Source: a virus. From it: a DNA stretch of 17,209 nucleotides. Below, in pieces: positions 2,158 to 14,708 of the stretch. Position 1 is the stretch's first letter, and every line of letters begins with the position of its first letter. The notes under the pieces are model-generated. The model was not told the origin of the DNA, did no database searches, and worked only from the letters and a program-made list of their open reading frames with translations. A program made the translations under genes and the position numbers. The stretch lies in UHGV virus genome UHGV-0341595, one strand, 5' to 3'.

Positions 2158-2988
2158 ACCGGACTCCTCCTGCGATCCCTTCTGATACTGTCATCAGCAT
2201 TACGTCATCCTCCGTCATGTCCGCCACATCCGGGGAAGCGGGGATAACTTCATTCCCGTCCGGGCCAAAGCGGACGCCTCCGGCAAGCCCTGCCGCTTTC
2301 TGCATCAGCACATCATCTTCAGGCTCTTCGTCAGCCTCGCGCCGGTTCAGCAGACTGAAATCCAGCGGATGCATATCCGGCTCGCTGAAAAACAGGCTGA
2401 GTACGGTGTACGTCAGCCCGGAAAAGTGCATATCCAGCAGAACATCATGAAAATAATGGGTACTGTAAAAGCGGTGCCAGTCGGCATACTCCGTGGATGA
2501 CATCCCGGCAAGCATGGCGCGCCAGTCGGGTCGCCCCATCTCACGCGCCAGTTTCAGGGCAAAACTCAGCTCACCGTCGAACACTTTCCCGCAGAAACAG
2601 GCTCTGCTGGCCCGGCGTCATCTGCCTGTTCAGGTGCATCATTCACAACAAACTCAGACATACCGGACAGACGCATTACCACATTTTCAGCCTGAGCAAT
2701 TGCCTCTGTGGGCCAGGTGGTAAGCACTTCCTGCTCAATTTGTTTAACGGCTTCATTCATGGACGGCATCTTTGTCTTCTGCGGATGGCTATGCCACAGG
2801 GACATCGCCACCAGAAAAGCACCGGTTCTGACGAGATCTTCCACGCTCACCTGTCGATTGAGACTGGATCCCGCCTGTTCTGCCTGTCGTTTCAGCAGGG
2901 CGAGATGCTCAATTCGCTGCAGGGCTGACAGTTCAGAAAGCGTGACGCTCACACCGTTATATTCAAATGATTCGGTTTTCAGGAACAT
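2150..2988 (-). CDS. T: Tail assembly chaperone G-T fusion made by programmed -1 ribosomal frameshift; the T portion (2150..2584) has no start of its own
   Basis: Minus-strand heptamer G GGA AAG (plus-strand 2584..2590, ctttccc) lies in the G frame 6 codons before the G stop. The -1 frame continues as VFDGELSFALKLAREMGRPDWRAMLAGMSSTEYADWHRFY... to a stop at 2150, 7 nt before the H start. Same architecture as lambda G/GT. Confidence 0.85.
2566..2988 (-). CDS. G: Tail assembly chaperone G (lambda gpG-like), 140 aa
   Basis: ORF track 2566..2988 (-), MFLKTESFEYNGVSVTLSELSALQRIEHLALLKRQAEQ...; same length and position (between V and T/H) as lambda G; ends 18 nt past the slippery heptamer. Confidence 0.9.
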   Translation of the reverse strand: MFLKTESFEYNGVSVTLSELSALQRIEHLALLKRQAEQAGSSLNRQVSVEDLVRTGAFLVAMSLWHSHPQKTKMPSMNEAVKQIEQEVLTTWPTEAIAQAENVVMRLSGMSEFVVNDAPEQADDAGPAEPVSAGKCSTVS

Positions 2989-3003
2989 CGCTGACTCTCC
3001 GGA

Positions 3004-3744
3004 TTAACTGTCGGTGACGGTGATTTCTGCAACCACAGCAAGTTCACCATTACCGGATACAACCGGAATGTTGACCTTGCCTGCAGCAACACCTTTCACG
3101 GTGATGGTCATACCACTGACCGACACGGTGGCTTTTGTTTTATCCGCAGACACCGCACGGAAGCTCTTGTCGGTTGCGCCTTCCGGCTGGAATGCCACGG
3201 TCAGCGTGGTGCTCTGCCCTTTCACCACCGAAGTGCTGGCAGGCGTCACGGTCATGCCGGTTGCCGCTGTTACCGTGCTGCGATCTTCTGCCATCGACGG
3301 ACGTCTCACGTTGGTGACTTTCACCGTGCGGGTGATCACTTCCTTCGCCGTCACCGCCTTACCGATACTGCTGACCCAGCCGCGGAACACATCGACCGTG
3401 CCGTTCGGGAAGCGGATTTTATAGGCACGGGTATCCCCTTCATTAAACCACGCCAGCAGCGCCTGCTGCCCCTGCTCTCCGGGCATCCACGCCAGCGTGA
3501 AGCTGGTATCTCCGGCAGATTTCTGCCCCTGCCCGGTCGCAGTCCAGTCCGCATCTTCATCATCGAGATAGCTGTCGTCATAGGACTCAGCGGTCAGTTC
3601 GCCGGGCGTCAGGTCTTTAACTTTAGCCAGACGCGACCAGTCAACGTCTGAAAGCGGGTTCGCATAAGGGTCACCGTTCCCCTTATAAACCCACAGTGTG
3701 GTCCCGGCCCCTTTCACCGGCATTACTGGATTTGGTACAGGCAT
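3004..3744 (-). CDS. V: Major tail tube protein V (lambda gpV-like) with C-terminal Ig-like domain
   Basis: ORF track 3004..3774. I place the start at the internal ATG 3744..3742 ([22 protein letters not shown]...), which has a GAGGA RBS and lies 8 nt after the U stop; gives 246 aa. C-terminus is T/S/V-rich, typical of the V Ig-like domain. Confidence 0.9.
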
Positions 3745-3751
3745 ATCGTCC

Positions 3752-4147
3752 TCACATTTCATAGGTAATGACATAAGTCAGATCGGCTGAACTCCACAGG
3801 CCCGCATCATCGTCGCGCCGGTAGTCATAGCCACTGGCCACCATACTGGTGATCAAATCTGACAGTGCCGGGACATCGCTCATCACCGGATAAATCCGGG
3901 ACTCCATCCACGAATCCAGCTCTGAATCCGGCACCTGAGCAGGCAGGAAAACTTCAATATGCAGCTCCGCCTGCCAGGTATCACTGTCCAGCTCTTCGCC
4001 CGTGTATTCAGCGCCGGTGAGATAAACGGCAATTGCCGGAAAATCCGCCTCATCAAAAACAGCGGGGCGACCATCAAAAAGCGTCGCCCCGGTGTCATGC
4101 TTCTCCAGTGCATCCAGTACGGCTGCACGGAGTTCAGTATGTTTCAT
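3752..4147 (-). CDS. U: Tail terminator protein U (lambda gpU-like), 131 aa
   Basis: [72 protein letters not shown]...; ATGA start/stop overlap with Z; lambda order Z-U-V. Confidence 0.92.
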
Positions 4148-4722
4148 CGCTTTATTACCATTCTCAGTTGATGCTGCAGCGCATAGCCCAGCTCTTTCGG
4201 AAGACGTTCACGCCGTATCCGTTCAATATTCTGTTTAAACGCCGTGGTAAGCGGCACCGCCATCGGGATTTTCACCACATCAATGGGGTAACGGTTTTTC
4301 CCGGCCACACGCTGCATGACATGCCACCGGCCATTTTTCAGTTGCTGAATAAACGCGCCGGGAATACGACGGTTTCCCACCACAAGCACGCTGCCGCCAC
4401 CTTTCAGGGATGAACGCTGCCCCTTTTTACGACGTCTGCGGCGGGAAAGGACAACCCGCGCGTTACCCAGCTTGATTACGGGCAAATCCCCCCGGTTAAC
4501 CCTGATTCTGGCCTGCGGATTTTTGACCGTGGCCCTTTTCAGCCTGGCCCTTTCCTTTACCAGTTTCCGGCGTACCTTTGTCTCACGGGCAACCTGTGAC
4601 GCAGACTGCGATATCGCGGATGACGCAACGCGGTTAATGGCCATTGCGGCGGCACCAGGCACCGCCGTTTTGCTGATACGGCTGAGGTTTTCAACGGCCT
4701 GCTCAAGACCTTTTATGGCCAT
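4144..4722 (-). CDS. Z: Tail completion protein Z (lambda gpZ-like), 192 aa
   Basis: ORF track 4144..4722; length and position between FII and U as in lambda; basic RRRRRKKGQR stretch. Confidence 0.88.
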   Translation of the reverse strand: MAIKGLEQAVENLSRISKTAVPGAAAMAINRVASSAISQSASQVARETKVRRKLVKERARLKRATVKNPQARIRVNRGDLPVIKLGNARVVLSRRRRRKKGQRSSLKGGGSVLVVGNRRIPGAFIQQLKNGRWHVMQRVAGKNRYPIDVVKIPMAVPLTTAFKQNIERIRRERLPKELGYALQHQLRMVIKR

Positions 4723-4733
4723 ACATCCCCCTT

Positions 4734-5087
4734 TCAGCGGCGACGGTTAACGGCAGGCGGCACGCCACGCCCAAGCCAGAGATGACAGCTTCCGCCATCA
4801 TCCGGCGAAATCCGGTCCACCCAGAAGTTTTCCTCGCCGATGGTCAGTGTGTCTCCACGCCGCAGCTGCCGCACATCATCAGTCCGGACAAACAGGGACG
4901 GGCTGGAGCCTTCAACGCGCACCCCCTGTCCGGCATAGCTGATATTTTCAGGGTCATCAAAAACACCACGTATCACAGCACCGGACAGCTCACCGGATGT
5001 CATGGTGGCTGACGTTCCCATGTACCCGCGTATCGTTTCATCGGCGCGGGCAATGGCAGCATCGAACAGGTTATCGGAATCAGCCAC
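4734..5087 (-). CDS. FII: Head-tail joining protein FII (lambda gpFII-like), 117 aa
   Basis: MADSDNLFDAAIARADETIRGYMGTSATMTSGELSGAVIRGVFDDPENISYAGQGVRVEGSSPSLFVRTDDVRQLRRGDTLTIGEENFWVDRISPDDGGSCHLWLGRG...; same length and position as lambda FII. Confidence 0.9.
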   Translation of the reverse strand: MADSDNLFDAAIARADETIRGYMGTSATMTSGELSGAVIRGVFDDPENISYAGQGVRVEGSSPSLFVRTDDVRQLRRGDTLTIGEENFWVDRISPDDGGSCHLWLGRGVPPAVNRRR

Positions 5088-5098
5088 AGCGCCTCCCG

Positions 5099-5494
5099 TT
5101 ATTGCATTCTGGCCAGGCCATGTTCTGTCATTTCGGCTGCCACACCGGCAGAGACACGAAACGCCGTTCCCGGCAGCACAAATGCCACAGGCTCATCCCG
5201 CGTGGCGTGAAGTGCATCAGTATGCAGCGTCACCAGTGCCACGACCGTGACCAGAGCAGCCGTATCAATCACGGTATCCGGCTGCGCTGATACCACCTCA
5301 TTTTCATGTCCGGTCAGCGCATTTTCCGGGCTGACAGATGTGTCCTGACCGGCAGCGTCATCCGTGTCATCAAGCTCCTCTTCCAGCTCTGCCACACGGA
5401 GCACCAGTTCTTCTTTCGTCCCCGTCAGGCTGACATCACGGTTCAGTTGCTCACCCAGCACCTGAAGACGGGCAATCAGTTCATCTTTCGTCAT
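5099..5494 (-). CDS. FI: DNA packaging/head assembly protein FI (lambda gpFI-like)
   Basis: ORF track 5099..5533. I place the start at ATG 5494..5492 (MTKDELIARLQVLGEQLNRDVSLTGTKEEL...), preceded by GGAGGA; this gives ~131 aa, matching lambda FI. The upstream 13 codons of the track ORF are probably not translated. Confidence 0.85.
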   Translation of the reverse strand: MTKDELIARLQVLGEQLNRDVSLTGTKEELVLRVAELEEELDDTDDAAGQDTSVSPENALTGHENEVVSAQPDTVIDTAALVTVVALVTLHTDALHATRDEPVAFVLPGTAFRVSAGVAAEMTEHGLARMQ

Positions 5495-5535
5495 GGACTC
5501 CTCCACAGAGAGAAAATGGCCCCGAAGGGCCATGA

Positions 5536-6324
5536 TTACGCCAGTTGTACGGACACGAACGCATCAGGATCAGCCAGCAGCATCAGCGGTGCTGACTGAA
5601 TCATGGTGAACTCACGCGCCGGATCGCCGGTGGTCACCCAGTTTTTCGGGTAGCGGGCAGAGGCGTTAATACCTTCGCGCTGTGCGTCCGCATCCTGAAT
5701 GCAGCCATAGGTGCGCAGACCGCGTGCCTGAGTGTTCCCCAGCACCATCGTGTTGTCCGGCAGGAAGTTCTTTTTGACGTCGTTTTCCACGTACTGTCCG
5801 GAATACACGACGATCGCCGTATCGCCATACATCCCCTTATAGGACACCGCTTCGCCCAGGTCTTTTACCGCTGTCTCCAGCTCGGAATTAGAGCCGCGAC
5901 GGGTATCCAGCTTCTCCTTGACGGCTTTGAAGGAACGGAACAGCGCCCAGCCTTTCGGATCAAACACGATGATATTCACCACGCCGCTGGCGTTCAGCGC
6001 GTAGGCTTCGATATCGTCGGTCGGGTCATACGTGGACTTGTCACGCTTGCTCCACTCCGTGCCGCCGGACTGCGTGATGTTGTTCGCCGCACTGCGGCCC
6101 ATATCCACCTCAACCGGATCGAAGGCTTCACCGGTCATGGTGTATTTGCCCTTGAGCACGGCAGAAACTGCCTGCATCTCTTCGACCTGAGCAATGGCCA
6201 GCTCTTCGTCACGCATGTTCTGCAGGATGATGCGACGGCGGCGGTAAGCCGGGTCCGCCAGATTCTGCGGATCTTCATCCGGCAGGCGACGCAGGGTCAT
6301 CTGCGGATTCACCTCATGCTTCGG
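5536..6324 (-). pseudogene. E: Major capsid protein E (lambda gpE-like), 5-prime truncated: only the C-terminal ~260 codons remain
   Basis: Translation ...PKHEVNPQMTLRRLPDEDPQNLADPAYRRRRIILQNMRDEELAIAQVEEM ... PLMLLADPDAFVSVQLA corresponds to lambda E from about residue 82 to the end. The frame hits TAG at 6327..6325 exactly where composition switches to AT-rich. No E N-terminus upstream; the track ORF starts at an internal GTG. Confidence 0.85.
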
Positions 6325-6352
6325 CTACATGAGTCAATCCCGAAAGAACTAT

Positions 6353-6382
6353 TTGATTTCACTTAGCTTTGTGGTTTATATA
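6353..6382 (+). promoter_or_regulatory. Candidate sigma70-type promoter for the DUF262-HEPN cassette
   Basis: TTGATT (6353..6358), 18-nt spacer, TATATA (6377..6382), about 100 nt upstream of the DUF262 ATG in an AT-rich non-coding stretch. Pattern match only. Confidence 0.3.
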
Positions 6383-6480
6383 TCTACGCAACTCCTATCA
6401 CTGCAATACTTTCTGCAATACAGATATGTGTAGTGAGGACTTGTCTAAAAACCATATTCACGAAGAAAAAGGATGACACG

Positions 6481-7644
6481 ATGCAACCAGAAGATTATGA
6501 AGAAAAGCAATACGAGGATGAGCCAGAATCCTATCCAATTGATGAGTTTCAACTTACTACTACGCCCAATGATTTTAATATAATCACAATTATAAGTTTT
6601 ATTAAATCAAAAGTTTTTAAAATCCCTAACTTTCAAAGGCATTATGTTTGGGATATCAAACGAGCATCAAAACTCATTGAATCTCTTTTAATAGGCCTTC
6701 CTATACCTCAAATATTTTTATATGAACAAGATAAAAATGAATTTTTAGTGATAGATGGTCAGCAGAGATTAATGACCCTTTATTACTTTGTAAATGGTGT
6801 ATTCCCTAGAAAAGAGAAACGTTCTGAACTGAGAAAAATCTTTGAAGATAATGGAAACATTCCAGAAAACATTCTTCACAATGATGAATACTTCACAAAG
6901 TTCAACCTAAAACTTGATGGTCTATCAGACACCCAAAAAAACAAGTTTAATGGGAAAAACTATGAAACATTAAACGAATTTCAAACCACTTTAAATCTGG
7001 CAACCATACGAAATATGGTAATCAAACCGGTTGCACAAGATTCGGAAGATGGTGCAATGTTTGAAATATTTAACCGCCTAAATAGTGGGGGAATGAACCT
7101 TTCTCCTCAAGAAATTCGTATGAGTTTATATCACTCAGACTTTCTTTCAAATCTTGTTTCATTGAATGAAAACAAGACATGGAGAAAAATTCTTTCAAAA
7201 AATGTTGTTGACATGCGATTGAGTGATATTGAAGCGATATTGCGCACATTTGCTATGTCCCTTTTTACATCTCAATACAAAAGCTCAGTTAGCGGTTTTT
7301 TGAACAATTTCTCAAATTATGCAAAAAACTACGACACTAAAGACATAATTTTATTTAGTAATATATGGAATGAATTTATGGATAGTGTTGATGGAATTGA
7401 TGAAATCAATTTCAGAACTGGTGGGAATCGTATGAGTATAACTTTATTTGAGTCAATTTTTTATGCTGCAACTTATGACTCATTTAAAGATAAAGATCTA
7501 AAAATAAGACAAGTGACGGTGAATTATATCGATAAGCTTAAAAATGATCCTGAATTTCTGACATTTAGTACTGATAAAACAACAAGAAGAGAGCATGTAA
7601 TTGGACGTCTAGAACGTGCAAGAACAATTTTGGAGGGAATGTAA
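6481..7644 (+). CDS. DUF262 (ParB/Srx-like N-terminal nuclease/NTPase) domain protein, ~387 aa
   Basis: ORF track 6433..7644; likely start ATG 6481 (MQPEDYEE...) with AAGGA 7 nt upstream. Contains the hallmark DUF262 motif FLVIDGQQRLMTLYYF and a second conserved block FEIFNRLNSGGMNLSPQEIR. Low-GC codon usage unlike the flanking phage genes. Confidence 0.8.
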   Translation: MQPEDYEEKQYEDEPESYPIDEFQLTTTPNDFNIITIISFIKSKVFKIPNFQRHYVWDIKRASKLIESLLIGLPIPQIFLYEQDKNEFLVIDGQQRLMTLYYFVNGVFPRKEKRSELRKIFEDNGNIPENILHNDEYFTKFNLKLDGLSDTQKNKFNGKNYETLNEFQTTLNLATIRNMVIKPVAQDSEDGAMFEIFNRLNSGGMNLSPQEIRMSLYHSDFLSNLVSLNENKTWRKILSKNVVDMRLSDIEAILRTFAMSLFTSQYKSSVSGFLNNFSNYAKNYDTKDIILFSNIWNEFMDSVDGIDEINFRTGGNRMSITLFESIFYAATYDSFKDKDLKIRQVTVNYIDKLKNDPEFLTFSTDKTTRREHVIGRLERARTILEGM

Positions 7645-7648
7645 AATA

Positions 7649-8197
7649 ATGGAGGATATGGGATATACTTCTATTGAAAGTATGTTTAATAACTATAAGT
7701 GTTATTATGATTTTCTTCTAACTCATAATGAGATTAGTTTTGCTAATGATTACAAATCACAATTTTCAAAAGTAATGCTATTAGCATGTGCTAGCTATTT
7801 TGAAACTTTAGTTGTAACTAAGATACATTGTATGCTTAACCCAAGCCAATGTAATCTTACACACGATTTTATCGATAATAAGGCCCTAACCAGGCAGTAT
7901 CATACACTCTTTGATTGGAAAAAAAGGAATGCAAACCAGTTTTTTTCCTTTTTTGGCCCAAAATTTAAAGAGTTTATGATTGAGAAGGTAAAATCAAGCA
8001 CAGAGTTGACCAAGTCTATCTCTGATTTTATGGAAATCGGAGAGCTAAGAAATAAATTAGCACATAATAATTATGCTACTTTTGTATTAGAAAGCACAGC
8101 TGAAGAGATTTATAATAAATTTTTAAATGCACATTCATTTGTCTCTCAACTAGATACGTTCAGTACACAGTTTAGAGAGCAAATTGGTGAACAGTAA
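7649..8197 (+). CDS. Small HEPN-motif protein (putative RNase-type effector), ~182 aa, coupled to the DUF262 gene
   Basis: ORF track 7616..8197; likely start ATG 7649 (MEDMGYTSIE...), 5 nt after the DUF262 stop, with GGAGGG upstream. C-terminal ELRNKLAHNNY fits the HEPN R-x4-6-H motif. I recall HEPN-like nucleases of this type being annotated adjacent to DUF262 proteins. Family assignment is by motif only. Confidence 0.6.
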   Translation: MEDMGYTSIESMFNNYKCYYDFLLTHNEISFANDYKSQFSKVMLLACASYFETLVVTKIHCMLNPSQCNLTHDFIDNKALTRQYHTLFDWKKRNANQFFSFFGPKFKEFMIEKVKSSTELTKSISDFMEIGELRNKLAHNNYATFVLESTAEEIYNKFLNAHSFVSQLDTFSTQFREQIGEQ

Positions 8198-8235
8198 TAG
8201 TTTATCTCCAGCAAAAAAAATAACTTGCAAATAAT

Positions 8236-8262
8236 AAAAGCGGTCGCGTGACCGCTTTTTTC
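8236..8262. terminator. Bidirectional rho-independent terminator
   Basis: aaaaGCGGTCgcgtGACCGCtttttt: 6-bp GC-rich stem, 4-nt loop, A-run before and T-run after, 39 nt downstream of the HEPN stop. Confidence 0.75.
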
Positions 8263-8409
8263 TATTTATCATTGCTATTTTCCTTTATTATTTCAGCAAT
8301 TGACATAACTAAGGCGTCTGCTTTATTTCTAGTCCTATCAAACATATCTCTAATTACATCAATATAATAATGTTCCTCAAAAATATTTACGTCTGACAAA
8401 AGTATTGCA

Positions 8410-8456
8410 CAACTCTTGCCCAAAATGTCAGCCAGTTGATCTTTGTTGACTTCCAT
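8410..8456 (-). pseudogene. nu1: 5-prime fragment of terminase small subunit gene nu1 (first ~15 codons only)
   Basis: The track ORF 8262..8456 starts MEVNKDQLADILGKS, matching the lambda Nu1 N-terminus MEVNKKQLADIFGAS as I recall it, then diverges into AT-rich sequence with no further Nu1 similarity. The 64-aa ORF is most likely a chimeric remnant. Confidence 0.7.
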
Positions 8457-8676
8457 TGTTCATTCCACGGACAAAAACAGAGAAAGGAAACGACAGAGGC
8501 CAAAATGCCCGTTTTCAGCGCCTGTCATTTCCTTTCTTTTCAGGGGGTATTTTAAATAAAAACATAAAGTTACGGCGAAGAAGAACGGAAATGCCTTAAA
8601 CCGGAAAATTTCCATAAATAGAGAAAAACTGCGCGCCTGACGCCCCGTAGCCTGTCAGATCGCCGGAAAGGACCCG
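8457..8676 (-). other. Lambda-type cos site (cosQ-cosN-cosB), oriented with the minus strand
   Basis: The minus strand reads ...GGGTCCTTTCCGGCGATCTGACAGGCTACGGGGCGTCAGGCGCGCAGTTTTTCTCTATTTATGGAAATTTTCCGGTTTAAGGCATTTCCGTTCTTCTTCG...GAAAAGAAAGGAAATGACAGG...GGCCTCTGTCGTTTCCTTTCTCTGTTTTTGTCCGTGGAATGAACAATGGAAGTCAAC, near-collinear with the lambda left end/cos region as I recall it, ending at the nu1 start. cosN core is around 8630..8650. Confidence 0.75.
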
Positions 8677-8701
8677 CCAGCCAGAGCGGGCCCTAATTTC
8701 A

Positions 8702-9085
8702 TCAACCAATCAGCTTATAGCGACCATCCCGTGCATTGCGGCGTACACGCTCAATCTTGAGGCATAGCGCCGCATCTGGCTTTTTTGGGACAGGTACGCG
8801 GCAATATTCAGAAGCGCGAGGAATATTATTTATCCAGTCGATCACTTCACTTAAATACCAGGCCTTACGCCCTTCCGTAACCTGCACACGCTCCGGGAAC
8901 TCTCCACTAGCCTCAAGGTTTAGCAGTGTACGCCGACTCAGGGTTGTAATTTCCATCACCTGATTCATATCAACAAGGCGCTCGCTTAAACACATTTTGT
9001 CAGCGATAGCTTTTAATTCCTCTACAGCTGGATTCGGGTACATCATTTCGGCAATTGGCTTAAGGTCATTGTAATCATTCTGCAT
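8702..9085 (-). CDS. AlpA/MerR-like HTH domain protein, 127 aa, last gene of the E-like/D-like operon, abutting cos
   Basis: ORF track 8702..9085. Central segment MEITTLSRRTLLNLEASGEFPERVQVTEGRKAWYLSEVIDWI fits the AlpA-family HTH pattern. RBS AAGGGGGA 5 nt before the ATG; start is 11 nt after the D-like stop. Confidence 0.6.
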   Translation of the reverse strand: MQNDYNDLKPIAEMMYPNPAVEELKAIADKMCLSERLVDMNQVMEITTLSRRTLLNLEASGEFPERVQVTEGRKAWYLSEVIDWINNIPRASEYCRVPVPKKPDAALCLKIERVRRNARDGRYKLIG

Positions 9086-9096
9086 TGTATCCCCCT

Positions 9097-9438
9097 TTAC
9101 ACACGAGCCAGCGGCTGAACAGAAATACCTGAGCCAACAAACGCTGCAATCTTTACTGACAGTTCTTTTACAGACTCAGGCCAGTTCAGAGCATCAACAT
9201 TTAAGACACCTGTCTTATAGACCTGAGCCTGTGTTTTTTTCGCGGTGTCGATTTGTACAGCGGAAACATAAACCGCTTTACCTACGCTCGAACCATCCCA
9301 TACCACCAGTGCACCTGTTGCATCTTCCTGCATCAGTGGCGTAAATGCAGGAATTACCCCTTTATTAGCTGAAAATATCCCCAGCGTAGTCACCAGTGCT
9401 TCAGTGCCAGCCATGAGTTCAGTGTAATGAGTAGCCAT
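9097..9438 (-). CDS. Head decoration protein, lambda gpD family (divergent), 113 aa
   Basis: TPLMQEDATGALVVWDGSSVGKAVYVSA...KTGVLNVDALNWPESV...KIAAFVGSGISVQP parallels lambda D (TPLMLDTSSRKLVAWDG...LWPEA...AFAGTAISIV) in size and motif order. GGGGGAG RBS overlaps the E-like stop. Confidence 0.7.
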   Translation of the reverse strand: MATHYTELMAGTEALVTTLGIFSANKGVIPAFTPLMQEDATGALVVWDGSSVGKAVYVSAVQIDTAKKTQAQVYKTGVLNVDALNWPESVKELSVKIAAFVGSGISVQPLARV

Positions 9439-9447
9439 TGCTCCCCC

Positions 9448-10488
9448 TTAGCCAATGCGAACGGTAACAAAACGATTGATGCGGGCCGGTATTGGCTGTG
9501 GTGCTGAATGTGTCTGCACATATTCAATAGCCGGATCACCAGGCACAATATAGTTTTTCGGTGCAAGTTCGGCTTTAGTCAGCCCCATTCGGATTAGCTC
9601 CGGATCCTGAATACCGCCATAGGCGACAATCCCCTGAAGAGCCGTATTGCCAAGCACCATCAAATCAGGATCAAGGAAATGTTTTTCAGTTCCGTCCTCG
9701 TCGGTATAACGCCCGCTGTATACAACAATCGCAACATCGCCCATATACCCTTTAAAACTCACCGAATCACCAAGGTCTTTAAGAGCCGTTTCCAGTTCGG
9801 AATTAGAACCACGACGGGTATCCAGAGCCTCTTTTATCGCTCTGAATGAACGGTATTTCTTCCATACATTACCGCCCATAATGATGATATTAGTGACGCC
9901 CTCACTAAATTCTGCGTAGCTCTCAATATCATCATTTGGATCAAAAGTTTCTTTATCCTTACCTGACCACTCAGCACCGCCAGACTGAGTGATGATATTT
10001 TGTGGTTTAATATTCCAGTCCAGCTCATAACGTTCAATACCATCGCCCTCAATGATATTTTTCCCCGTTGTGATTGCCTGAACGGCAAGCCATTCAATAC
10101 GTGCACGAATAGCTTTAGCCTGATTTACAATCGCCTGTTTAACTTTAATATTACGCGCTCCAAAAGCATTGTATTGCTCAGGTGATACACCAGCAGGGCG
10201 CACAGCTAACTTATTTGGATCAATGCTGCTTTTCGGCTTCATATAGCCTGGACGAATTGTTTTTGATTCGTACCCTTCGTCACGTGAAACTTTACTACCC
10301 GCCATAGGAGAACAAAACGCTGCAATTGGGATATTTGGATCGTCGATTGTATCAAGAATAATATCGCGCGATTCAAACATTACCGAGCGAGTAAAAAACA
10401 AACTGGTAAACAACGCATTTAGTTGTTTTTGTACATCTACAGCATTAACCACCTGTACAAGCTGGGTAGGCGAATATAAATCAACCAT
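9448..10488 (-). CDS. Major capsid protein, lambda gpE family (divergent, apparently intact), ~346 aa
   Basis: ORF track 9448..10662 (404 aa). Similarity to lambda E starts near MRMVDLYSPTQLVQ; AAGAGG RBS favours ATG 10488 (alternative 10494). Shares long identical stretches with the truncated E in this window (DTRRGSNSELETA, AIVVYSG, ITQSGG) but is otherwise divergent. The first ~57 track codons are probably untranslated leader. Confidence 0.8.
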   Translation of the reverse strand: MVDLYSPTQLVQVVNAVDVQKQLNALFTSLFFTRSVMFESRDIILDTIDDPNIPIAAFCSPMAGSKVSRDEGYESKTIRPGYMKPKSSIDPNKLAVRPAGVSPEQYNAFGARNIKVKQAIVNQAKAIRARIEWLAVQAITTGKNIIEGDGIERYELDWNIKPQNIITQSGGAEWSGKDKETFDPNDDIESYAEFSEGVTNIIIMGGNVWKKYRSFRAIKEALDTRRGSNSELETALKDLGDSVSFKGYMGDVAIVVYSGRYTDEDGTEKHFLDPDLMVLGNTALQGIVAYGGIQDPELIRMGLTKAELAPKNYIVPGDPAIEYVQTHSAPQPIPARINRFVTVRIG

Positions 10489-10662
10489 ACGCATCCTCTT
10501 TGCATTCATTAAAAATAATTGTGGATATATGCTATCACCGATATTTGTCATGCGAATACATGCAACCGAGTGCAATGTTGTATAAAGTTTTGGGATAACA
10601 ACTTCAGCGCGGATAATTAGTGTTAATATCTTCACTCCCTTTGGCCGGGATTTATGTAGCAT

Positions 10663-10696
10663 GCCGGAAAATTTATTTTTTTCCGGCCTTTTTTAT
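10663..10696 (+). terminator. Hairpin with plus-strand intrinsic-terminator features
   Basis: GCCGGAAAA-tttattt-TTTTCCGGC followed by CTTTTTTATT on the plus strand, between the ssb stop and the E-like upstream region. There is no U-tract in the minus orientation, so it would stop transcription antisense to the capsid operon. Confidence 0.45.
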
Positions 10697-10705
10697 TGGC
10701 AATAT

Positions 10706-11155
10706 TTAAAACGGAATATCATCTCCCCATTGTTCATTATCTCCCACTGGTGGATGGCTTCCTTGCTGATCTGCCTGTTGTTTTGCTCTGTTCAGTGCGT
10801 CAGTAGCCTGACCCTGTTGACCTTTTTTGCCGCCCGGTCGCACCGTTCGCGCACTGATTACGCTGTCTGCGATAACCTGCCAGCCCTGCCGCGTTTCACC
10901 GTTCTGTCCAGTCCACTGGCTCACCTGCATATTACCCGCCACGCTCAGGAGTTCGCCTTTGTGATGCTTTGCCAGCGCGTCGGCTTGTCTGCCAAACGCC
11001 AGGACAGATAACCACATCGTCGCCTGACCGTCATCCGACTGACTGCAGGGCAGTGATACCGCCATACGCGCCAGCGTCATGGGGGTGCCCTTGCTGGTCT
11101 GTTTTGTCTGCGGGTCGTCCACCAACCGCCCGTAAACTGATATTTGCGCCGTCAT
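10706..11155 (-). CDS. ssb: Single-stranded DNA-binding protein (SSB-like), 149 aa
   Basis: N-terminal OB-fold pattern VYGRLVDDPQ...TLARMAV...WLSVLAFGRQADALAKHHKGELLSVAGNMQVSQWTGQNGETRQGWQV, a Gly/Gln-rich linker and the acidic C-terminal tip GDDIPF typical of bacterial/phage SSB. Confidence 0.8.
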   Translation of the reverse strand: MTAQISVYGRLVDDPQTKQTSKGTPMTLARMAVSLPCSQSDDGQATMWLSVLAFGRQADALAKHHKGELLSVAGNMQVSQWTGQNGETRQGWQVIADSVISARTVRPGGKKGQQGQATDALNRAKQQADQQGSHPPVGDNEQWGDDIPF

Positions 11156-11397
11156 GCTGCCTGCTCTCCGGACTTAATATTGATTGTTGTCACTTCCTCC
11201 GCTTCAGCAATCTCCCGTTCGGTCAGAGTGGCAAAGTTTGCAGCCGCCGTTGTCATGAATGCGCTAATCAGTTCGGGATGTGCTTTCGCGTATCCTTCCC
11301 CGGCGTTGCGGTCGATGATTTTTATCGACACCCTTAACCAGTGTTCCGTCAAATCAAGGGCGTGCGATTGTGATTTTTTTGTGTGCTTCGCTGTCAT
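11152..11397 (-). CDS. Hypothetical protein, 81 aa, translationally coupled to ssb
   Basis: ORF track; ATGA overlap with the ssb start; directly downstream of the iteron cluster. No recognisable motif. Confidence 0.45.
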   Translation of the reverse strand: MTAKHTKKSQSHALDLTEHWLRVSIKIIDRNAGEGYAKAHPELISAFMTTAAANFATLTEREIAEAEEVTTINIKSGEQAA

Positions 11398-11443
11398 AGG
11401 CTTTATCTCACAGCAGTAAATTAAAATTTTTGCGTTTTAACCC

Positions 11444-11680
11444 TTCACCTGTTCACCTTTTGATATTTTCTCTTTTAATTCATAATGTTAATGGGTGAAC
11501 AGTTTCACAAAAACTATTCACCAACTGTTCACCACTGTTCACCACTGTTCACCCTTGAAGCTCAATAAACAATCAAAAAGGTGAACAGTGAATAGTTTGG
11601 TGAACAGTTCATAAATAACTGTTCACCCTATAATATACTGATATAAAAGATATTTATGACAGGGTGAACAGTGGTGAACA
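11444..11680. repeat. Iteron cluster (putative replication origin): at least 10 perfect copies of TGTTCACC/GGTGAACA plus degenerate copies
   Basis: TGTTCACC at 11450, 11526, 11536, 11546, 11620; GGTGAACA at 11494, 11580, 11599, 11663, 11673; degenerate TATTCACC 11515 and GTGAATAG 11588. Lies just after the primase stop (11695). The octamer is the P4 type I iteron bound by P4 alpha in ori/crr, as I recall it. Confidence 0.8.
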
Positions 11681-11694
11681 GTTATTCCATAAGT

Positions 11695-13515
11695 TTAATT
11701 TTTGCTATCGTCATTAGTGACCGATACACATGATGGCATCCAGTCTTCTGATTCCTCCGTCAGTGTCACGTTTGAACGCAAACCGTGCTTCGTTTTCCGT
11801 TTCATATACTCCCTGCCATATTCCGCCATTGCCCCCGGCATATCTTTACCGAAGCGCGTCAGTGTTACAGGTTTACCAAACCCATGTGCCCTCATATAAG
11901 CCAGATAGGCATGATAGAGATACCTGCGTGGGCTGAATGGCACAATTTCAGCATTACCCACTAACAGGCCATCACACATTACCGATGCCATGAGATAGCC
12001 GCAGAAGTCCACCAGCGAATCCCCCTCTCGCTTTATCGCCAGTGCTTCTTCAGATTTCTGCTGCTCATATAACAGGCGTCTGGCTTCGTCCTGATCAGCA
12101 AACCGTGTAAGCAGATGGCGAATCACTACCGCCAGCTCACCTTCTATTTTTTCCGCCAGCATCGAATCGCGTTCGTTCTCCGGTACAACTTCCGAAAAAT
12201 TGAATATCACCCGACGACGTGAGATCCCCCCGCTGCGGTCACTGAATGACATGGCGTTATTGTTAACCGCCAGCACTACTGCCGGAATACGCGTTGAATA
12301 GGGGGCTTTGTGTTTCGGGTCAATTGCCACCTTGTCACCGCCTGTAATGGCCTTAATCCCTGCCCCATCACCAGCGTAGCGGGTCATATCCGGCATGATA
12401 ATCAGCGAAAAGCCAACCACTAACGCACGTTCCCTTGCATCTTCCAGCGCCTTCATGCTTGCTGATACTGTATTAGCCTTACCCGCCAGCATGGTGCAAA
12501 TCTCCGCCATCACACTTTTACCACTTCCCCCCGGCCCTGTTACCTCAATGAATAACTGCCAGTCGTACCGGTTCGCCAGCACCATGAATAATGCCGCCAG
12601 TACGCGATCTGCCTTGCGGTCATTCTCAGCCACCGAACGGCGCAACCACTTCCAGAAATTCGGCGCATGTGTTGCCAGCGTTTCCCCCTCTGCTGGTGGG
12701 CTGAAAGGTAATTCACTGGCAATTAACAACCAGTCGTTTTTGTTATGCTCCCGAAAATTACCAGTTCTGGTATCAAATACCCCGTTACTGAATCCAATCA
12801 GGTTACGGGCTGTATTCCCCATTACAGGCAAACTTAACTTCATGGTATCTACCGCCGATTTAATAGCGTTCTGCGAATAGCTGATCTCCGCATCAATGAA
12901 AATCTGCGCCATAGCACGCTGTAACTCTTTATCCTGAACCGGCTCCCATACAACGCCGTTGTAATGATGAACGGTGTCAGAGTCGGCATTGATTGCCAGT
13001 TCGCCGCCGTAATGTGCAAGGAGAACTTCACCGCGCTGGCTGGCCCCCATCTGATTCAACGCCAAAGATGAAGCACGCTCGTCATTTTTGCGCTCTGCCT
13101 TCTTCACTGGCAGTTCAATCACCAGACTTTCCCCATGCTCCGCTTCAGCTTTTAGGCCGACAAGGCGCGGAGTCCAGTCTTCAGGCTCTCGATCAACAAA
13201 GCTACGGTAACAACGTGCTTCCTTTACGCCTGCAATAGCAAGTAATGTCGCAACCTTCGTCAGACTTTTCTCTGCAATCTTTCCGGCACGATAAACACGC
13301 ACATAATGACGGCCTTCATCGATAATTTGCATATCATCCAGGTTTTCCAGTTGTTCCGTACCCAGAATGACTGGTGGTGTATCATCTGCTGCAATATGCT
13401 TACCTGCCCATTCATTCCATTCTTTTGCATGACTCCAGGCATCACTGCCAGCAAAAATGATGACTTCCGTCATTTTGTCGCGCGGTTGGTATTTTAAGTT
13501 CGGAGCACGTTTCAT
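11695..13515 (-). CDS. Replication initiator primase/helicase (P4 alpha-like; D5_N/SF3 NTPase type), 606 aa
   Basis: ORF track 11695..13515; strong GGAGG RBS 5 nt before the ATG; Walker A GPGGSGKS in the central region; size and position (after int-alpA, before iterons) typical of P4/PICI replication proteins. Confidence 0.8.
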   Translation of the reverse strand: MKRAPNLKYQPRDKMTEVIIFAGSDAWSHAKEWNEWAGKHIAADDTPPVILGTEQLENLDDMQIIDEGRHYVRVYRAGKIAEKSLTKVATLLAIAGVKEARCYRSFVDREPEDWTPRLVGLKAEAEHGESLVIELPVKKAERKNDERASSLALNQMGASQRGEVLLAHYGGELAINADSDTVHHYNGVVWEPVQDKELQRAMAQIFIDAEISYSQNAIKSAVDTMKLSLPVMGNTARNLIGFSNGVFDTRTGNFREHNKNDWLLIASELPFSPPAEGETLATHAPNFWKWLRRSVAENDRKADRVLAALFMVLANRYDWQLFIEVTGPGGSGKSVMAEICTMLAGKANTVSASMKALEDARERALVVGFSLIIMPDMTRYAGDGAGIKAITGGDKVAIDPKHKAPYSTRIPAVVLAVNNNAMSFSDRSGGISRRRVIFNFSEVVPENERDSMLAEKIEGELAVVIRHLLTRFADQDEARRLLYEQQKSEEALAIKREGDSLVDFCGYLMASVMCDGLLVGNAEIVPFSPRRYLYHAYLAYMRAHGFGKPVTLTRFGKDMPGAMAEYGREYMKRKTKHGLRSNVTLTEESEDWMPSCVSVTNDDSKN

Positions 13516-13799
13516 TTGTTACCTCCGGCAACTAACATTGCCCGAATTTTACGGATATAGCCTGCGGCACGCCTCTGATTATCTGTCTTGCAATTTTTTA
13601 CCAGAATGAAATCTCTTTCGAACTGCTGACGCGGCATAACACATTCAAAATCATAACCATCACGCAAATAAGAGACACGACGATCATCAACCGAAATAAT
13701 CTTTACCCGATAGCCATAGCTGTCTTTAAAAATATCCCCAAGGCTGATTTTTGAATGAGTTTGACCGCTGGCAATAAAGCCAGAAAATTTATTTTTCAT
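13512..13799 (-). CDS. Hypothetical protein, 95 aa, coupled to primase
   Basis: ORF track; stop overlaps the primase ATG (ATGA). No recognisable motif. Confidence 0.45.
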   Translation of the reverse strand: MKNKFSGFIASGQTHSKISLGDIFKDSYGYRVKIISVDDRRVSYLRDGYDFECVMPRQQFERDFILVKNCKTDNQRRAAGYIRKIRAMLVAGGNK

Positions 13800-13802
13800 T
13801 TT

Positions 13803-14027
13803 TTATTCTCCGGTATAGCTCTGGTCGTGTATTTTTATAGCTTCATCCAGCTCTTTGATGACAGGATCAAGTAACGTAATTAACGCTCCAGCTAAATTAG
13901 CATCCCGTTCATCGTGTTCCGCATTTGTTGTCCCATCAAGCCAGGTTGATAAGATTTCTCGCATATTTTTGCCACAAACGAGCGCGTTTTCAGCATGTGT
14001 CAGCACTTTAAAATAAAGATCATTCAT
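13803..14027 (-). CDS. Hypothetical protein, 74 aa
   Basis: ORF track; tightly packed in the same operon (3-nt gap to the next gene). No recognisable motif. Confidence 0.4.
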   Translation of the reverse strand: MNDLYFKVLTHAENALVCGKNMREILSTWLDGTTNAEHDERDANLAGALITLLDPVIKELDEAIKIHDQSYTGE

Positions 14028-14385
14028 GGCACACCTCCTGACGAATACGGGCAGCGAATATCATCACGTAGCCAGTTGGGGATTGCAGCCGGGCTTCCTG
14101 TTCGCTGGCGGCCTCGATGTGTATTACGCGTGGTTGTGCGGTGCTCAGGGCGATAAAACGCCAGATGAAATTGTTTTCGCATTTCTGAATAAACAGCGTG
14201 TTTTCTTCACGCCCTTTCCAGAAAGCCGCAGTATAGCCCATCTCCTTAACCATCTTGCGGGCATCAACCAGCGTGTCAGCGGCTACATGTACCGTAGTTG
14301 CTCCATCTGCCATGCGGTCGTGGTGTAGTGCCAGAAAGGTGTATATAAATTTAGGGTGAGTTTGGGTATGCTGTGTTCCAGCCAT
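14020..14385 (-). CDS. Hypothetical protein, 121 aa, first gene of the replication-side operon
   Basis: ORF track; 8-nt overlap with the downstream ORF; preceded by a palindromic regulatory region. No recognisable motif. Confidence 0.45.
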   Translation of the reverse strand: MAGTQHTQTHPKFIYTFLALHHDRMADGATTVHVAADTLVDARKMVKEMGYTAAFWKGREENTLFIQKCENNFIWRFIALSTAQPRVIHIEAASEQEARLQSPTGYVMIFAARIRQEVCHE

Positions 14386-14415
14386 AATCGTTACCTCATT
14401 TAACGGGTTGGTTAG

Positions 14416-14448
14416 ACGCCTCGATGGTGTTCCCGCACGTCGAGGCGT
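14416..14448. promoter_or_regulatory. 9-bp inverted repeat hairpin in the leader of the minus-strand operon
   Basis: ACGCCTCGA (14416..14424) and TCGAGGCGT (14440..14448) with a 15-nt loop, followed on plus by TGCATTTTCC. Could be an attenuator/terminator or a protein-binding site. Confidence 0.4.
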
Positions 14449-14468
14449 TGCATTTTCCTAAACACGTA

Positions 14469-14522
14469 TGTAATGTGTCATCACACATTAACACATTACA
14501 TCGGGTGTAATTGACGTGTCAA
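14469..14522. promoter_or_regulatory. Operator-like palindromes in a divergent control region
   Basis: TGTAATGTGT (14469..14478) is the reverse complement of ACACATTACA (14491..14500); ACACATTA is tandemly repeated (14483, 14491); second palindrome TTGAC-GT-GTCAA at 14511..14522 overlaps a -35-like TTGACG. Confidence 0.5.
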
Positions 14523-14695
14523 CACACAAAAATCAAAGACGTGGTAATCCTCCGTTCCAGTTTCGGTTAGATCCTGAGTTGAGGGAGTTGATGGAGCAAG
14601 CACAGCAAGTAGATGGAGACGAATCTTTAGCAGCCTGGATTAAAAGGATTATTCGCAAAGAACTACAGCAACGCGGATATGAAGTCAAAATTTAA
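14516..14695 (+). CDS. Small ribbon-helix-helix-like putative regulator (59 aa from GTG 14516, or 34 aa from ATG 14591); not in the ORF track
   Basis: Hand translation: VSTHKNQRRGNPPFQFRLDPELRELMEQAQQVDGDESLAAWIKRIIRKELQQRGYEVKI, stop TAA 14693..14695. The FQFRLDPELRELMEQA segment fits the RHH beta-strand/helix pattern. GAGGGAG lies before the ATG at 14591. Only plus-strand gene in the satellite backbone. Confidence 0.4.
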   Translation: MSTHKNQRRGNPPFQFRLDPELRELMEQAQQVDGDESLAAWIKRIIRKELQQRGYEVKI

Positions 14696-14708
14696 CAGAT
14701 AATATTTC

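What the first reader, a model, noticed from the sequence alone, without database searches (positions are those of the whole stretch)
6325..8411. Low-GC DUF262 + HEPN two-gene cassette: candidate nuclease-based defence module
A 2.1-kb AT-rich island holds a DUF262 protein (FLVIDGQQRLMTLYYF; FEIFNRLNSGGMNLSPQEIR) followed 5 nt later by a small protein with an R-x4-H HEPN-type motif (ELRNKLAHNNY), with its own putative promoter and a strong bidirectional terminator. DUF262 domains occur in GmrSD/BrxU/SspE-type defence nucleases, usually fused to a DUF1524/HNH nuclease. Here the partner is a separate HEPN-like protein, which suggests a sensor plus RNase-type abortive-infection effector. I cannot place it in a named defence system from memory.
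Basis: partly seen in the sequence, partly recalled or inferred. Interest (0 to 1): 0.8.

Follow-up and report, generated by a model that had tools for sequence, protein, structure and literature searches.

The report
PD-T4-2-type DUF262 plus HEPN defence pair
The AT-rich island holds a real two-gene module, a ParB-like DUF262 NTPase followed by a small HEPN RNase. This architecture was already shown to protect E. coli from phage T4 under the name PD-T4-2, and here it rides as cargo on a phage satellite embedded in a prophage capsid gene.

Summary
Window 6347..8418 is a 31% GC cargo segment. Gene A (6481..7644, 387 aa) matches Pfam GmrSD_N/DUF262 at E 1.7e-35 and has intact QRxxxW, DGQQR and FxxxN motifs. 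Gene B (7649..8197, 182 aa) starts 4 nt after A's stop, matches Pfam HEPN_RiboL-PSP at E 1.6e-13, and has an invariant R134-x4-H139. A bidirectional terminator lies at 8236..8259. The claimed promoter was not found by the scan.

The pair is a conserved operon. In 54 of 58 genomes from many phyla, an A homologue sits directly upstream of the B homologue.

The architecture has a name. DUF262 + RiboL-PSP-HEPN is PD-T4-2 (Vassallo 2022), and the operon was noted in 2013. This copy belongs to a diverged clade: PADLOC PD-T4-2_A scores 2e-38, but PD-T4-2_B only 2e-4.

It is not GmrSD (no DUF1524) and not Menshen (no NsnB or NsnC).

The host element is the published helper-embedded satellite 11capE. 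There the cassette fills a variable slot next to cos and replaces terS.

Verdict: a real, probably functional defence module and a new member of a known kind. The mechanism is inferred, not shown.

The parts
6317..6346 (.). End of the satellite. It holds the att identity block (TGCTTCGGCT, 6317..6326) inside the interrupted lambda-E-like capsid gene, plus about 20 bp of conserved satellite end.
   Evidence: In NRG857c the 10-bp block TGCTTGGGTT occurs at both junctions. This matches the 10-bp block reported for Eco567.11capE (PMC10111431). Similarity to a sister element carrying different cargo (AF40, L062) runs up to window 6346. The second junction lies outside the window.
6353..6383 (+). 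Candidate weak promoter, TTGATT-N17/18-T(T)ATATA.
   Evidence: Read from the sequence. It was not called by the consensus scan. It is conserved in the Enterobacter copy. Unverified.
6401..6421 (+). Two direct copies of CTGCAATAC, 12 bp apart, between the candidate promoter and gene A. Possibly an operator.
   Evidence: Both copies are conserved in the Enterobacter cassette. Function unknown.
6481..7644 (+). Gene A: a 387-aa protein with a ParB-like DUF262 (GmrSD_N) NTPase domain (about residues 30-220) and an all-helical C-terminal domain (about residues 220-387). It has no DUF1524/HNH domain.
7649..8197 (+). Gene B: a 182-aa all-alpha HEPN protein of the RiboL-PSP family, with the R134-N-K-L-A-H139 motif (codons 8048..8065).
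8236..8259 (.). Bidirectional intrinsic terminator that closes the A-B operon and insulates it from convergent transcription.
   Evidence: a 10-bp stem with 5 GC pairs, a 4-nt loop, and T runs on both strands.
8262..8456 (-). Chimeric 64-aa ORF. Only its first 12-13 codons (8419..8456, MEVNKDQLADILG) are the N-terminus of a Nu1-type small terminase. The rest is AT-rich cargo DNA. It marks the right edge of the cargo replacement.
   Evidence: Similarity to the nohA/cos region of the K-12 Qin prophage covers 8419..8676 (L060 annotation). Sister satellites carry an intact Nu1-family terS at this position.
8419..8676 (.). Lambdoid cos region of the satellite. It is context and not part of the defence module.
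   Evidence: 258 bp are 90.7% identical to the sequence next to nohA in K-12. The same 258 bp at 90% identity is reported as the presumed cos of 11capE (PMC10111431).

Best explanation
This is a self-contained two-gene anti-phage module of the PD-T4-2 type. Gene A encodes a ParB-like DUF262 NTPase with a helical C-terminal domain. By analogy with the equivalent domain of NsnA, SspE and GmrSD, that C-terminal domain is presumed to bind DNA. Gene B encodes a stand-alone RiboL-PSP-family HEPN ribonuclease. The genes are 4 nt apart, so translational coupling is plausible. They run antisense to every other gene of the host element and end in their own bidirectional terminator.

Proposed mechanism (all steps inferred). 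A binds and hydrolyses an NTP through the clustered QRxxxW, DGQQR and FxxxN motifs. It surveys DNA through its C-terminal domain. On meeting a phage-specific DNA feature, it switches conformation and releases or activates B. Modified cytosines of T-even phages are the obvious candidate trigger. B, as a dimer, forms the composite Rx4H active site and cleaves RNA (tRNA or mRNA). Translation stops and the infection is blocked, either abortively or through reversible growth arrest.

The module is accessory cargo. It occupies the cos-proximal end of an 11capE-type helper-embedded PICI satellite that sits inside the major capsid gene of a lambdoid prophage. In this E. coli lineage it has replaced the satellite's small-terminase gene.
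For: Shown here:
- Domain identity of both proteins and their folds.
- Strict conservation of the NTPase motifs in A and of R134, N135 and H139 in B across phyla. This argues that both are active enzymes.
- Operon conservation. Of 58 genome loci with a B homologue, from Proteobacteria, Actinobacteria, Firmicutes, Bacteroidota, Chloroflexi, Verrucomicrobia and archaea, 54 have an A homologue immediately upstream on the same strand. Two more are cut by a contig end.
- In the 48 intact pairs the gap is -11 to +37 nt.
- The A and B identity matrices correlate, with r = 0.68 and 0 of 2000 Mantel permutations reaching it.
- In viral contigs, 23 of 27 A homologues with at least 39% identity are followed by B. 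The distant A relatives (30-36% identity) are followed by small proteins that match PF18735 (L102 only below the Pfam cut-off).
- Mobility as a unit. The same cassette (93% amino-acid identity) sits at the same place in an Enterobacter satellite. A 67%-identical pair sits next to the integrase of a relaxase-bearing island in Salmonella.
- A sister satellite at the same capsid-gene site carries a different gene in this slot.

From the literature:
- PD-T4-2 is 'DUF262, HEPN'. It protects against T4, both when cloned and in its native strain ECOR65 (PMC9519451).
- DUF262 acts as an NTPase and sensor in GmrSD, BrxU and SspE (PMC10952713; PMC12065111).
Against: - No experiment exists on this clade.
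- B matches the PADLOC PD-T4-2_B model only weakly: E 2e-4 for this protein, and 7e-7 at best among 63 homologues, of which only 26 match.
- A scores higher on the NsnA (Menshen) model than on PD-T4-2_A.
- I could not obtain the PD-T4-2 sequences themselves for a direct comparison.
- Whether PD-T4-2 acts by abortive infection or by direct immunity is not stated in the text I could read.
- Its trigger, the RNA target and any A-B contact are unknown.
- Two B homologues have no A nearby (L029, L035), and three A homologues have no B within 6 kb (L091-L093). The partnership is therefore strong but not absolute.
- No promoter was detected by the scan.
Confidence: 0.65

Rival explanations
1. It is a toxin-antitoxin or addiction module that stabilises the satellite. 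B is a HEPN RNase toxin, A is its protein antitoxin, and phage defence is at most a side effect.
Against: - A is large (387 aa) and more conserved than B (mean pairwise identity 47% against 36%).
- A keeps all NTPase motifs invariant, which is unlike a simple neutralising antitoxin.
- The gene order is partner first, as in PD-T4-2, and that system gives phage protection (PMC9519451).
- This reading is not exclusive of defence.
Confidence: 0.15
2. It is a DNA-targeting, type IV-restriction-like system. A itself cuts or nicks modified phage DNA through a ParB-like nuclease activity, and B is an accessory or regulatory subunit.
For: The closest structural relatives of A are the DNA-targeting enzymes BrxU, SspE and DndI. 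ParB-fold domains are treated as DNases in the HEPN survey (PMC3710099). PD-T4-2 was selected on T4, whose DNA is modified.
Against: Neither protein has a DUF1524/HNH domain; in GmrSD, BrxU and SspE that domain is the nuclease (PMC10952713). B keeps an invariant catalytic Rx4H, which would not be expected of a purely regulatory subunit.
Confidence: 0.12
3. It is a degraded or partial Menshen (NsnABC) system, of which only NsnA survives next to an unrelated gene.
For: The best PADLOC hit of A is NsnA, E 6e-59 over the full length.
Against: - There is no NsnB ATPase or NsnC effector anywhere in the window. Downstream of B are a terminator, a terS remnant and cos.
- The A-B pairing is conserved in 54 of 58 loci across phyla, so B is the genuine partner.
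- All 48 A homologues that carry a HEPN partner also hit the NsnA model. That model therefore detects the shared ParB-DUF262 + C-terminal-domain scaffold and not Menshen specifically.
Confidence: 0.03

Closest known systems
PD-T4-2 (Vassallo et al. 2022, E. coli ECOR65; PADLOC PD-T4-2_A and PD-T4-2_B)
   Same: - It is a two-gene operon in the same order.
- A is a DUF262 (PF03235) protein without DUF1524.
- B is a small (about 160-180 aa) stand-alone HEPN of the RiboL-PSP family (PF18735).
- It is found in E. coli.
Our A matches the PD-T4-2_A model over its whole length at E 2e-38. Our B matches PD-T4-2_B collinearly.
   Different: - The sequences have diverged. B reaches only E 2e-4 (19 bits) on the PD-T4-2_B model.
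- A and B are longer here: 387 + 182 aa, 1717 bp, against about 1540 bp for PD-T4-2.
- No direct sequence comparison was possible.
- The phage range, the trigger and the mode of action of this clade are untested.
Menshen NsnA (NsnABC; Millman 2022, Li et al. 2025)
   Same: A shares the whole NsnA scaffold: a ParB-DUF262 domain with the QRxxxW, DGxQR and FxxxN motifs, plus a helical C-terminal domain that Li et al. name ParBDB (PMC12065111).
   Different: There is no NsnB ATPase and no NsnC inPIN-nuclease effector. The effector here is a separate HEPN protein.
GmrSD / BrxU / SspE (type IV restriction and phosphorothioate-sensing enzymes)
   Different: In those enzymes DUF262 is fused to a DUF1524 His-Me/HNH DNase. 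Here no DNase domain exists, and the partner is an RNase-type HEPN protein.
RiboL-PSP-HEPN 'operon with ParB' (Anantharaman et al. 2013, HEPN superfamily survey)
   Same: This is exactly the gene neighbourhood seen here. It was predicted as a conflict system with a conserved Rx4-6H (PMC3710099).
   Different: That was a computational note only. No clade structure, host element or function was given.
Eco567.11capE helper-embedded PICI (Mageeney et al. 2023)
   Same: The host element of the cassette is this satellite type. The window aligns to NRG857c at 97-98% identity over most of its length and diverges at the 14.4-15.7 kb cargo locus. It has the same insertion in capsid gene E, the same presumed 258-bp cos, and no terS.
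   Different: In the text I searched, the paper does not mention DUF262, HEPN or defence cargo. It describes the non-hypothetical genes as unidirectional. The antisense A-B cassette was therefore not interpreted.

Membership tests
PD-T4-2-type system (DUF262 + RiboL-PSP HEPN) | Two adjacent co-oriented genes, with the DUF262 gene first and the HEPN gene second | tested here: met
   A is 6481..7644 and B is 7649..8197, on the same strand with a 4-nt gap. The same order is found in 54 of 58 related loci.
PD-T4-2-type system (DUF262 + RiboL-PSP HEPN) | Component A carries DUF262/GmrSD_N (PF03235) with a DGQQR motif and lacks DUF1524 | tested here: met
   PF03235 scores 1.7e-35, and there is no DUF1524 hit at E up to 1. 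D92-R96 are invariant.
PD-T4-2-type system (DUF262 + RiboL-PSP HEPN) | Component B is a HEPN of the RiboL-PSP family (PF18735) with an Rx4-6H motif | tested here: met
   PF18735 scores 1.6e-13, above the gathering score. R134-x4-H139 is invariant. The fold is HEPN. PD-T4-2B itself hits PF18735 in HHpred at 97.8%.
PD-T4-2-type system (DUF262 + RiboL-PSP HEPN) | Both proteins are recognised by the PD-T4-2 profile HMMs (PADLOC) | tested here: inconclusive
   A scores E 1.9e-38 but is outscored by NsnA. B scores E 2e-4, 19 bits. Across the family, 48 of 48 A homologues hit the model, but only 26 of 63 B homologues do, with a best E of 7e-7. PADLOC's own thresholds and DefenseFinder could not be run.
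PD-T4-2-type system (DUF262 + RiboL-PSP HEPN) | Confers resistance to phage (T4) that depends on both genes | not testable with these tools
   This needs cloning and plaque assays.
Menshen (NsnABC) | NsnA-like gene followed by an NsnB ATPase and an NsnC effector | tested here: not met
   Only A is present. The next features are B (HEPN), a terminator, a terS remnant and cos. No ATPase or PIN-like gene lies in the cargo segment.
GmrSD / BrxU / SspE family | DUF262 combined with a DUF1524 (His-Me/HNH) nuclease domain, fused or adjacent | tested here: not met
   Neither A nor B matches DUF1524. B is all-alpha HEPN.
HEPN superfamily | Four-helix up-down core with a conserved Rx4-6H motif | tested here: met
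Helper-embedded PICI (11capE type), the host element | Integrase-bearing satellite of about 11 kb inserted in the major capsid gene of a lambdoid prophage, with alpA, primase, its own capsid gene and cos | tested here: met
   The 10-bp att block is at both junctions in NRG857c. cos comes. It matches the description in PMC10111431. In the window only one junction is present.

The most novel reading that the evidence does not exclude
The most novel reading not excluded has two parts.

First, this clade may be functionally distinct from PD-T4-2. Its HEPN partner has drifted so far that the PD-T4-2_B model barely sees it, so it may have a different trigger and a different RNA target.

Second, the whole ParB-DUF262 + RiboL-PSP-HEPN superfamily may work by a logic not yet described for any defence system. 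In that logic, an NTP-gated ParB-type DNA clamp or sensor directly licenses a separate HEPN RNase.

In a helper-embedded satellite that lost terS when it gained the cassette, the module might also act for the satellite, in conflicts with its helper or with competing phages, and not only for the cell.
Probability: 0.25. Interest if true: 0.55.

Novelty: new member of a known kind. Interest (0 to 1): 0.3.

Why it matters
PD-T4-2-type systems are validated, but in the literature I could search their mechanism is uncharacterised and no close relative has a solved structure.

This work shows that the DUF262 + RiboL-PSP-HEPN pair is a very broad and old operon. It persists across bacterial phyla and archaea, and down to about 30% identity in A. 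Current PADLOC models see only part of it on the HEPN side.

The work also identifies a cargo slot with defence-type content in the published helper-embedded satellite 11capE. This adds to the picture of satellites as carriers of immune genes. It also offers a tractable E. coli model, strain NRG857c, in which the cassette, the satellite and its helper can be manipulated together.

For annotation, the practical result is a name and a testable prediction for genes now labelled only 'DUF262 domain-containing' and 'HEPN domain-containing'.

Tried and rejected
1. Obtaining the real PD-T4-2 sequences (RCO39066.1; QOYX01000002 338334..339873) for a direct alignment. The supplement gives accessions only. 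Distant pairs from viral contigs of a similar size (L102, L104) are not in the E. coli genome collection, and their B partners do not hit PD-T4-2_B. The comparison therefore rests on PADLOC and Pfam profiles.

2. Rfam scan of the whole window. No family was found. The widely conserved 218-258 bp next to the cassette turned out to be the lambdoid cos region, not an RNA gene.

3. The promoter claim. The scan found none upstream of gene A, and promoter-like sites in the region are no more frequent than in shuffles.

4. Sequence search of solved structures. There is no close relative of either protein. B gave only chance-level hits, and A gave only weak DUF262 hits such as BrxU 7p9k.

5. Phage and plasmid collections. 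B has only one hit in each, Akkermansia phage Chambord and an Exiguobacterium plasmid. The family is rare in sequenced phages and plasmids.

6. DARNA (PD-T7-3) and Ishtar papers. I checked them as possible mechanistic precedents. They describe unrelated single-protein HEPN systems.

7. IS insertions seen in 3 of the 31 E. coli copies. In the one I inspected, the IS lies downstream of B and does not disrupt the genes. This gives no evidence of counter-selection.

Full report

Yes. The composition profile drops from about 0.57 GC to 0.29-0.36 between roughly 6250 and 8500. Computed on the segment I later defined as cargo (6347..8418), GC is 0.313. The prophage part (1..6312) has 0.575 and the rest of the satellite 0.452.

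The six-frame listing shows two long + strand ORFs in this AT-rich DNA. With ATG starts and Shine-Dalgarno-like sequences upstream, they are gene A (6481..7644, 387 aa) and gene B (7649..8197, 182 aa), with 4 nt between stop and start. RefSeq annotates the same two genes, with the same lengths, in 31 complete E. coli genomes as 'DUF262 domain-containing protein' and 'HEPN domain-containing protein'.

The hairpin at 8236..8259 (10-bp stem, T runs on both strands) is the only terminator-like site in the region.

The 'own promoter' is the one element that I could not confirm. The scan reports no site upstream of gene A, and the density of promoter-like sites equals that of shuffled sequence. By eye there is a weak TTGATT-N17/18-T(T)ATATA at 6353..6383. 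It is conserved in the Enterobacter copy of the cassette. So is a pair of CTGCAATAC direct repeats at 6401..6421.

**2. What are the two proteins?**

*Gene A.* It matches Pfam GmrSD_N (PF03235, the former DUF262) at E 1.7e-35 and has no DUF1524. In PADLOC its best full-length matches are NsnA (6e-59) and PD-T4-2_A (2e-38). Only its N-terminal 50-110 residues match GmrSD-like models such as HEC-05, HEC-06 and SspE.

An alignment of 48 homologues keeps three motif groups invariant: F51-Q52-R53...W57, D92-G-Q-Q-R96, and E195, R199, L200, N201, G203, G204. These correspond to the three DUF262 motifs (QRxxxW, DGxQR, FxxxN) that Li et al. describe as clustering around the nucleotide (PMC12065111).

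*Gene B.* It matches Pfam HEPN_RiboL-PSP (PF18735) above the gathering score (E 1.6e-13). R134, N135 and H139 (an Rx4H motif) are invariant in 63 homologues, together with H85, F88, W90, G103, F127 and G131.

**3. Do the two genes belong together?**

I scanned one genome per species (GTDB) for B relatives. This returned 58 loci from Gamma- and Alphaproteobacteria, Actinobacteria, Firmicutes, Bacteroidota, Chloroflexi, Verrucomicrobia, Leptospira, Synergistetes and methanogenic or methanotrophic archaea.

- In 54 of the 58, tblastn finds an A homologue (27-68% identity) ending within a few bases of the B start on the same strand. Two more loci are cut by a contig end. Two (L029, L035) have B without A.
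- In the 48 intact pairs the spacing is -11 to +37 nt.
- Pairwise identities of A and B across these pairs correlate, with r = 0.68 and no Mantel permutation out of 2000 reaching it. A is the more conserved partner (mean 47% against 36%).
- Starting from A instead, in IMG/VR viral contigs, 23 of 27 A homologues with at least 39% identity are followed by a B-family protein.
- The more distant A relatives (30-36% identity, L097-L105) are followed by 158-179-aa proteins. My B profile and PADLOC do not recognise these, but they match PF18735 (L102 only below the gathering score). Two of them (L102, L104) align their R-x4-H with that of B.

The ParB-DUF262 then RiboL-PSP-HEPN operon is therefore an old, widespread unit, and the window holds one clade of it. 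A full HMMER search finds 865 50%-identity cluster representatives of the B clade (385 at E 1e-30 or better) among 1.84 billion. Nearly all of those listed are 170-190 aa.

**4. What known system is it?**

Vassallo et al. list PD-T4-2 as 'DUF262, HEPN', from ECOR65 (Table S1). Their HHpred results are PF03235 for PD-T4-2A and PF18735 RiboL-PSP (97.8%) for PD-T4-2B (Table S3). Deleting the system in ECOR65 restored T4 plaquing.

Anantharaman et al. (2013) had already tabulated the RiboL-PSP-HEPN family as occurring in an 'operon with ParB'. Later reviews group PD-T4-2 with Menshen and Dazbog as DUF262 systems without DUF1524 and call them largely uncharacterised.

The window's pair meets every architectural criterion of PD-T4-2, but it is a diverged member.

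- B scores only E 2e-4 on PADLOC's PD-T4-2_B. Across the clade only 26 of 63 members match, with a best E of 7e-7.
- All A members match PD-T4-2_A (best E 1.6e-49), but they match NsnA better.

Other named systems are excluded. It is not Menshen, because no NsnB or NsnC is present. It is not a GmrSD/BrxU/SspE enzyme, because no DUF1524 is present. It gives no hit to Dazbog or PD-lambda-5 models at E up to 1.

I could not retrieve the PD-T4-2 sequences themselves, so the depth of the split is known only through profiles.

**5. Where does it sit?**

The window is not a generic 'defence island'.

*Prophage part.* Positions 1..6312 are lambda-like tail and head genes on the minus strand. They end in a major capsid gene E that lacks its first 80 or so codons.

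*Satellite part.* From about 6317 to the window end lies an 11-kb satellite. Its features are:

| Feature | Window position |
|---|---|
| Tyrosine integrase | 15912..17135 |
| AlpA | 15683..15910 |
| Variable locus | about 14.4-15.7 kb |
| Icd-like gene (named from the NRG857c annotation; no Pfam or PADLOC family match for the window ORF 14020..14385) | 14020..14385 |
| DUF4222 | 13512..13799 |
| D5-type primase-helicase | 11695..13515 |
| SSB | 10706..11155 |
| Its own E-like capsid gene | 9448..10662 |
| Its own D-like decoration gene | 9097..9438 |
| A second AlpA-type regulator | 8702..9085 |
| Lambdoid cos region | 8419..8676 |

*Identity of the element.* In E. coli NRG857c the same element (97-98% identical over most of its length) is flanked by the two halves of gene E and by a 10-bp direct repeat. 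This is the published helper-embedded PICI Eco567.11capE. It was described from that very strain, with a 10-bp att block, a 258-bp presumed cos and no terS (PMC10111431). In the text I searched, that paper does not mention the two genes studied here.

*The cargo slot.* Comparison with sister elements defines the cargo slot.

- A satellite at the same capsid-gene site in strain AF40 is similar up to 6346 and again from 8474. In between it carries a single 438-aa protein with no Pfam or PADLOC match.
- Chromosomal relatives at thiM/rcnR and clpS carry an intact Nu1-family small terminase plus a small ORF there.
- In Enterobacter hormaechei the same DUF262-HEPN cassette (93% identity) lies between the att end and an intact terS, in a satellite that is again inserted in a prophage capsid gene.
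- In the window only the first 12-13 codons of terS survive, fused to AT-rich DNA as the 64-aa ORF 8262..8456.

The cassette is therefore one of several alternative cargos at the cos-proximal end of this satellite family. In the E. coli lineage its presence goes with loss of terS.

*Other host elements.* A 67%-identical pair sits next to the integrase of a relaxase-bearing island in Salmonella. The module therefore moves between different kinds of mobile element.

**6. How does it most likely work?**

*Shown.* There are two enzymes with intact, strictly conserved catalytic signatures. They are co-inherited as a tightly spaced operon, carried on mobile elements, and share the architecture of a validated anti-T4 system.

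*Inferred.* The model rests on what DUF262 does in GmrSD, BrxU and SspE (NTP-dependent sensing of modified DNA that activates a linked nuclease) and on the general behaviour of HEPN RNases (dimeric composite Rx4H site, tRNA or mRNA cleavage; for recent examples). On that basis:

- A senses a phage DNA feature and, through NTP binding or hydrolysis, activates or releases B.
- B cleaves RNA and halts translation.

Whether the outcome is abortive infection or direct immunity, what the trigger is, and whether A and B touch each other are all open.

*Rivals.* The rivals are a TA or addiction role, DNA cleavage by A itself, and a Menshen remnant. They are weighed in the rival section. The first two are partly compatible with the main model. 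The third is excluded by gene content.

**7. Novelty and score**

The finding is real and biologically meaningful, but its kind is known.

- The architecture was predicted in 2013 and validated in 2022.
- The host satellite was published in 2023.
- The proteins are already annotated by domain in RefSeq.

Three things are new.

- The assignment of this diverged clade to the PD-T4-2 type.
- The evidence that the operon spans a much wider sequence space than current PADLOC models capture on the HEPN side.
- The recognition of a variable cargo slot in helper-embedded satellites. This slot holds the PD-T4-2-type pair, and the element carries a second candidate defence gene elsewhere: the TIR-domain protein at 14771..15646, which matches PADLOC PDC-S35 at 7e-67.

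I rate it a new member of a known kind, with interest 0.3.

Noticed in passing
window 1..17209 (junction at about 6317..6326); L001 11237..23339: The window is a lambdoid prophage whose major capsid gene E is split by an 11-kb integrase-bearing satellite. The satellite carries its own E-like capsid and D-like decoration genes. A 10-bp att repeat flanks it in NRG857c. This is the published helper-embedded PICI Eco567.11capE type (PMC10111431), and the same arrangement occurs in Enterobacter hormaechei (L064, L065).
   Followed up: yes
window 14771..15646 (minus strand): A 291-aa protein with a CAP12/Pycsar-type TIR domain (PF10137, E 1e-33). It matches the PADLOC candidate system PDC-S35 (E 7e-67). 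It sits in a second variable locus of the satellite (about 14.4-15.7 kb, GC 0.36), which holds unrelated genes in NRG857c. It is probably a second defence cargo.
   Followed up: partly
window 8419..8676 and 8262..8456: A 258-bp stretch is about 91% identical to the sequence next to nohA (a Nu1 homologue) in the K-12 Qin prophage; its 8460..8677 part matches about 4000 E. coli genomes at roughly 90-92%. This is the lambdoid cos region. The adjacent 64-aa ORF keeps only the first 12-13 codons of a Nu1-type small terminase, so the satellite lost terS where the cassette sits. No Rfam family matches.
   Followed up: yes
L062 4429..5745 (E. coli AF40): A sister satellite at the same capsid-gene site carries a single 438-aa protein in the slot that holds DUF262-HEPN here. 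That protein has no Pfam or PADLOC match. It is an uncharacterised alternative cargo and worth testing as a defence gene.
   Followed up: partly
window 6401..6421: Two exact copies of CTGCAATAC, 12 bp apart, lie upstream of gene A. Both are conserved in the Enterobacter cassette. They may be a regulator binding site.
   Followed up: no
L097-L105 (IMG/VR viral contigs): Distant relatives of A (30-36% identity, about 350 aa) are each followed by a 158-179-aa protein. These proteins match Pfam RiboL-PSP-HEPN (L102 only below the gathering score) but no PADLOC model, including PD-T4-2_B. They look like further undetected clades of the same two-gene architecture.
   Followed up: partly
L035 5749..8498; L029 2974..4652; L091-L093: These are exceptions to the pairing. 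In L035 a B homologue follows a 698-aa protein with a SEC-C motif and a ParE-like C-terminus instead of A. In L029 B stands alone next to a rolling-circle Rep gene. Three viral contigs have A with no B within 6 kb.
   Followed up: partly
L067-L069 (Salmonella enterica): A 67%-identical DUF262-HEPN pair lies directly after the integrase of an island that carries a relaxase and a MobC/NikA-like gene. The island is next to a bapA-type giant adhesin and its type I secretion locus. The same module therefore rides on a different class of mobile element.
   Followed up: no
H26 (Akkermansia phage Chambord, 5292..5798); H27 (Exiguobacterium mexicanum plasmid NZ_CP040675): These are the only hits to B in the phage and plasmid collections, at about 37% identity. 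The plasmid hit is annotated with an adjacent DUF262 gene.
   Followed up: no
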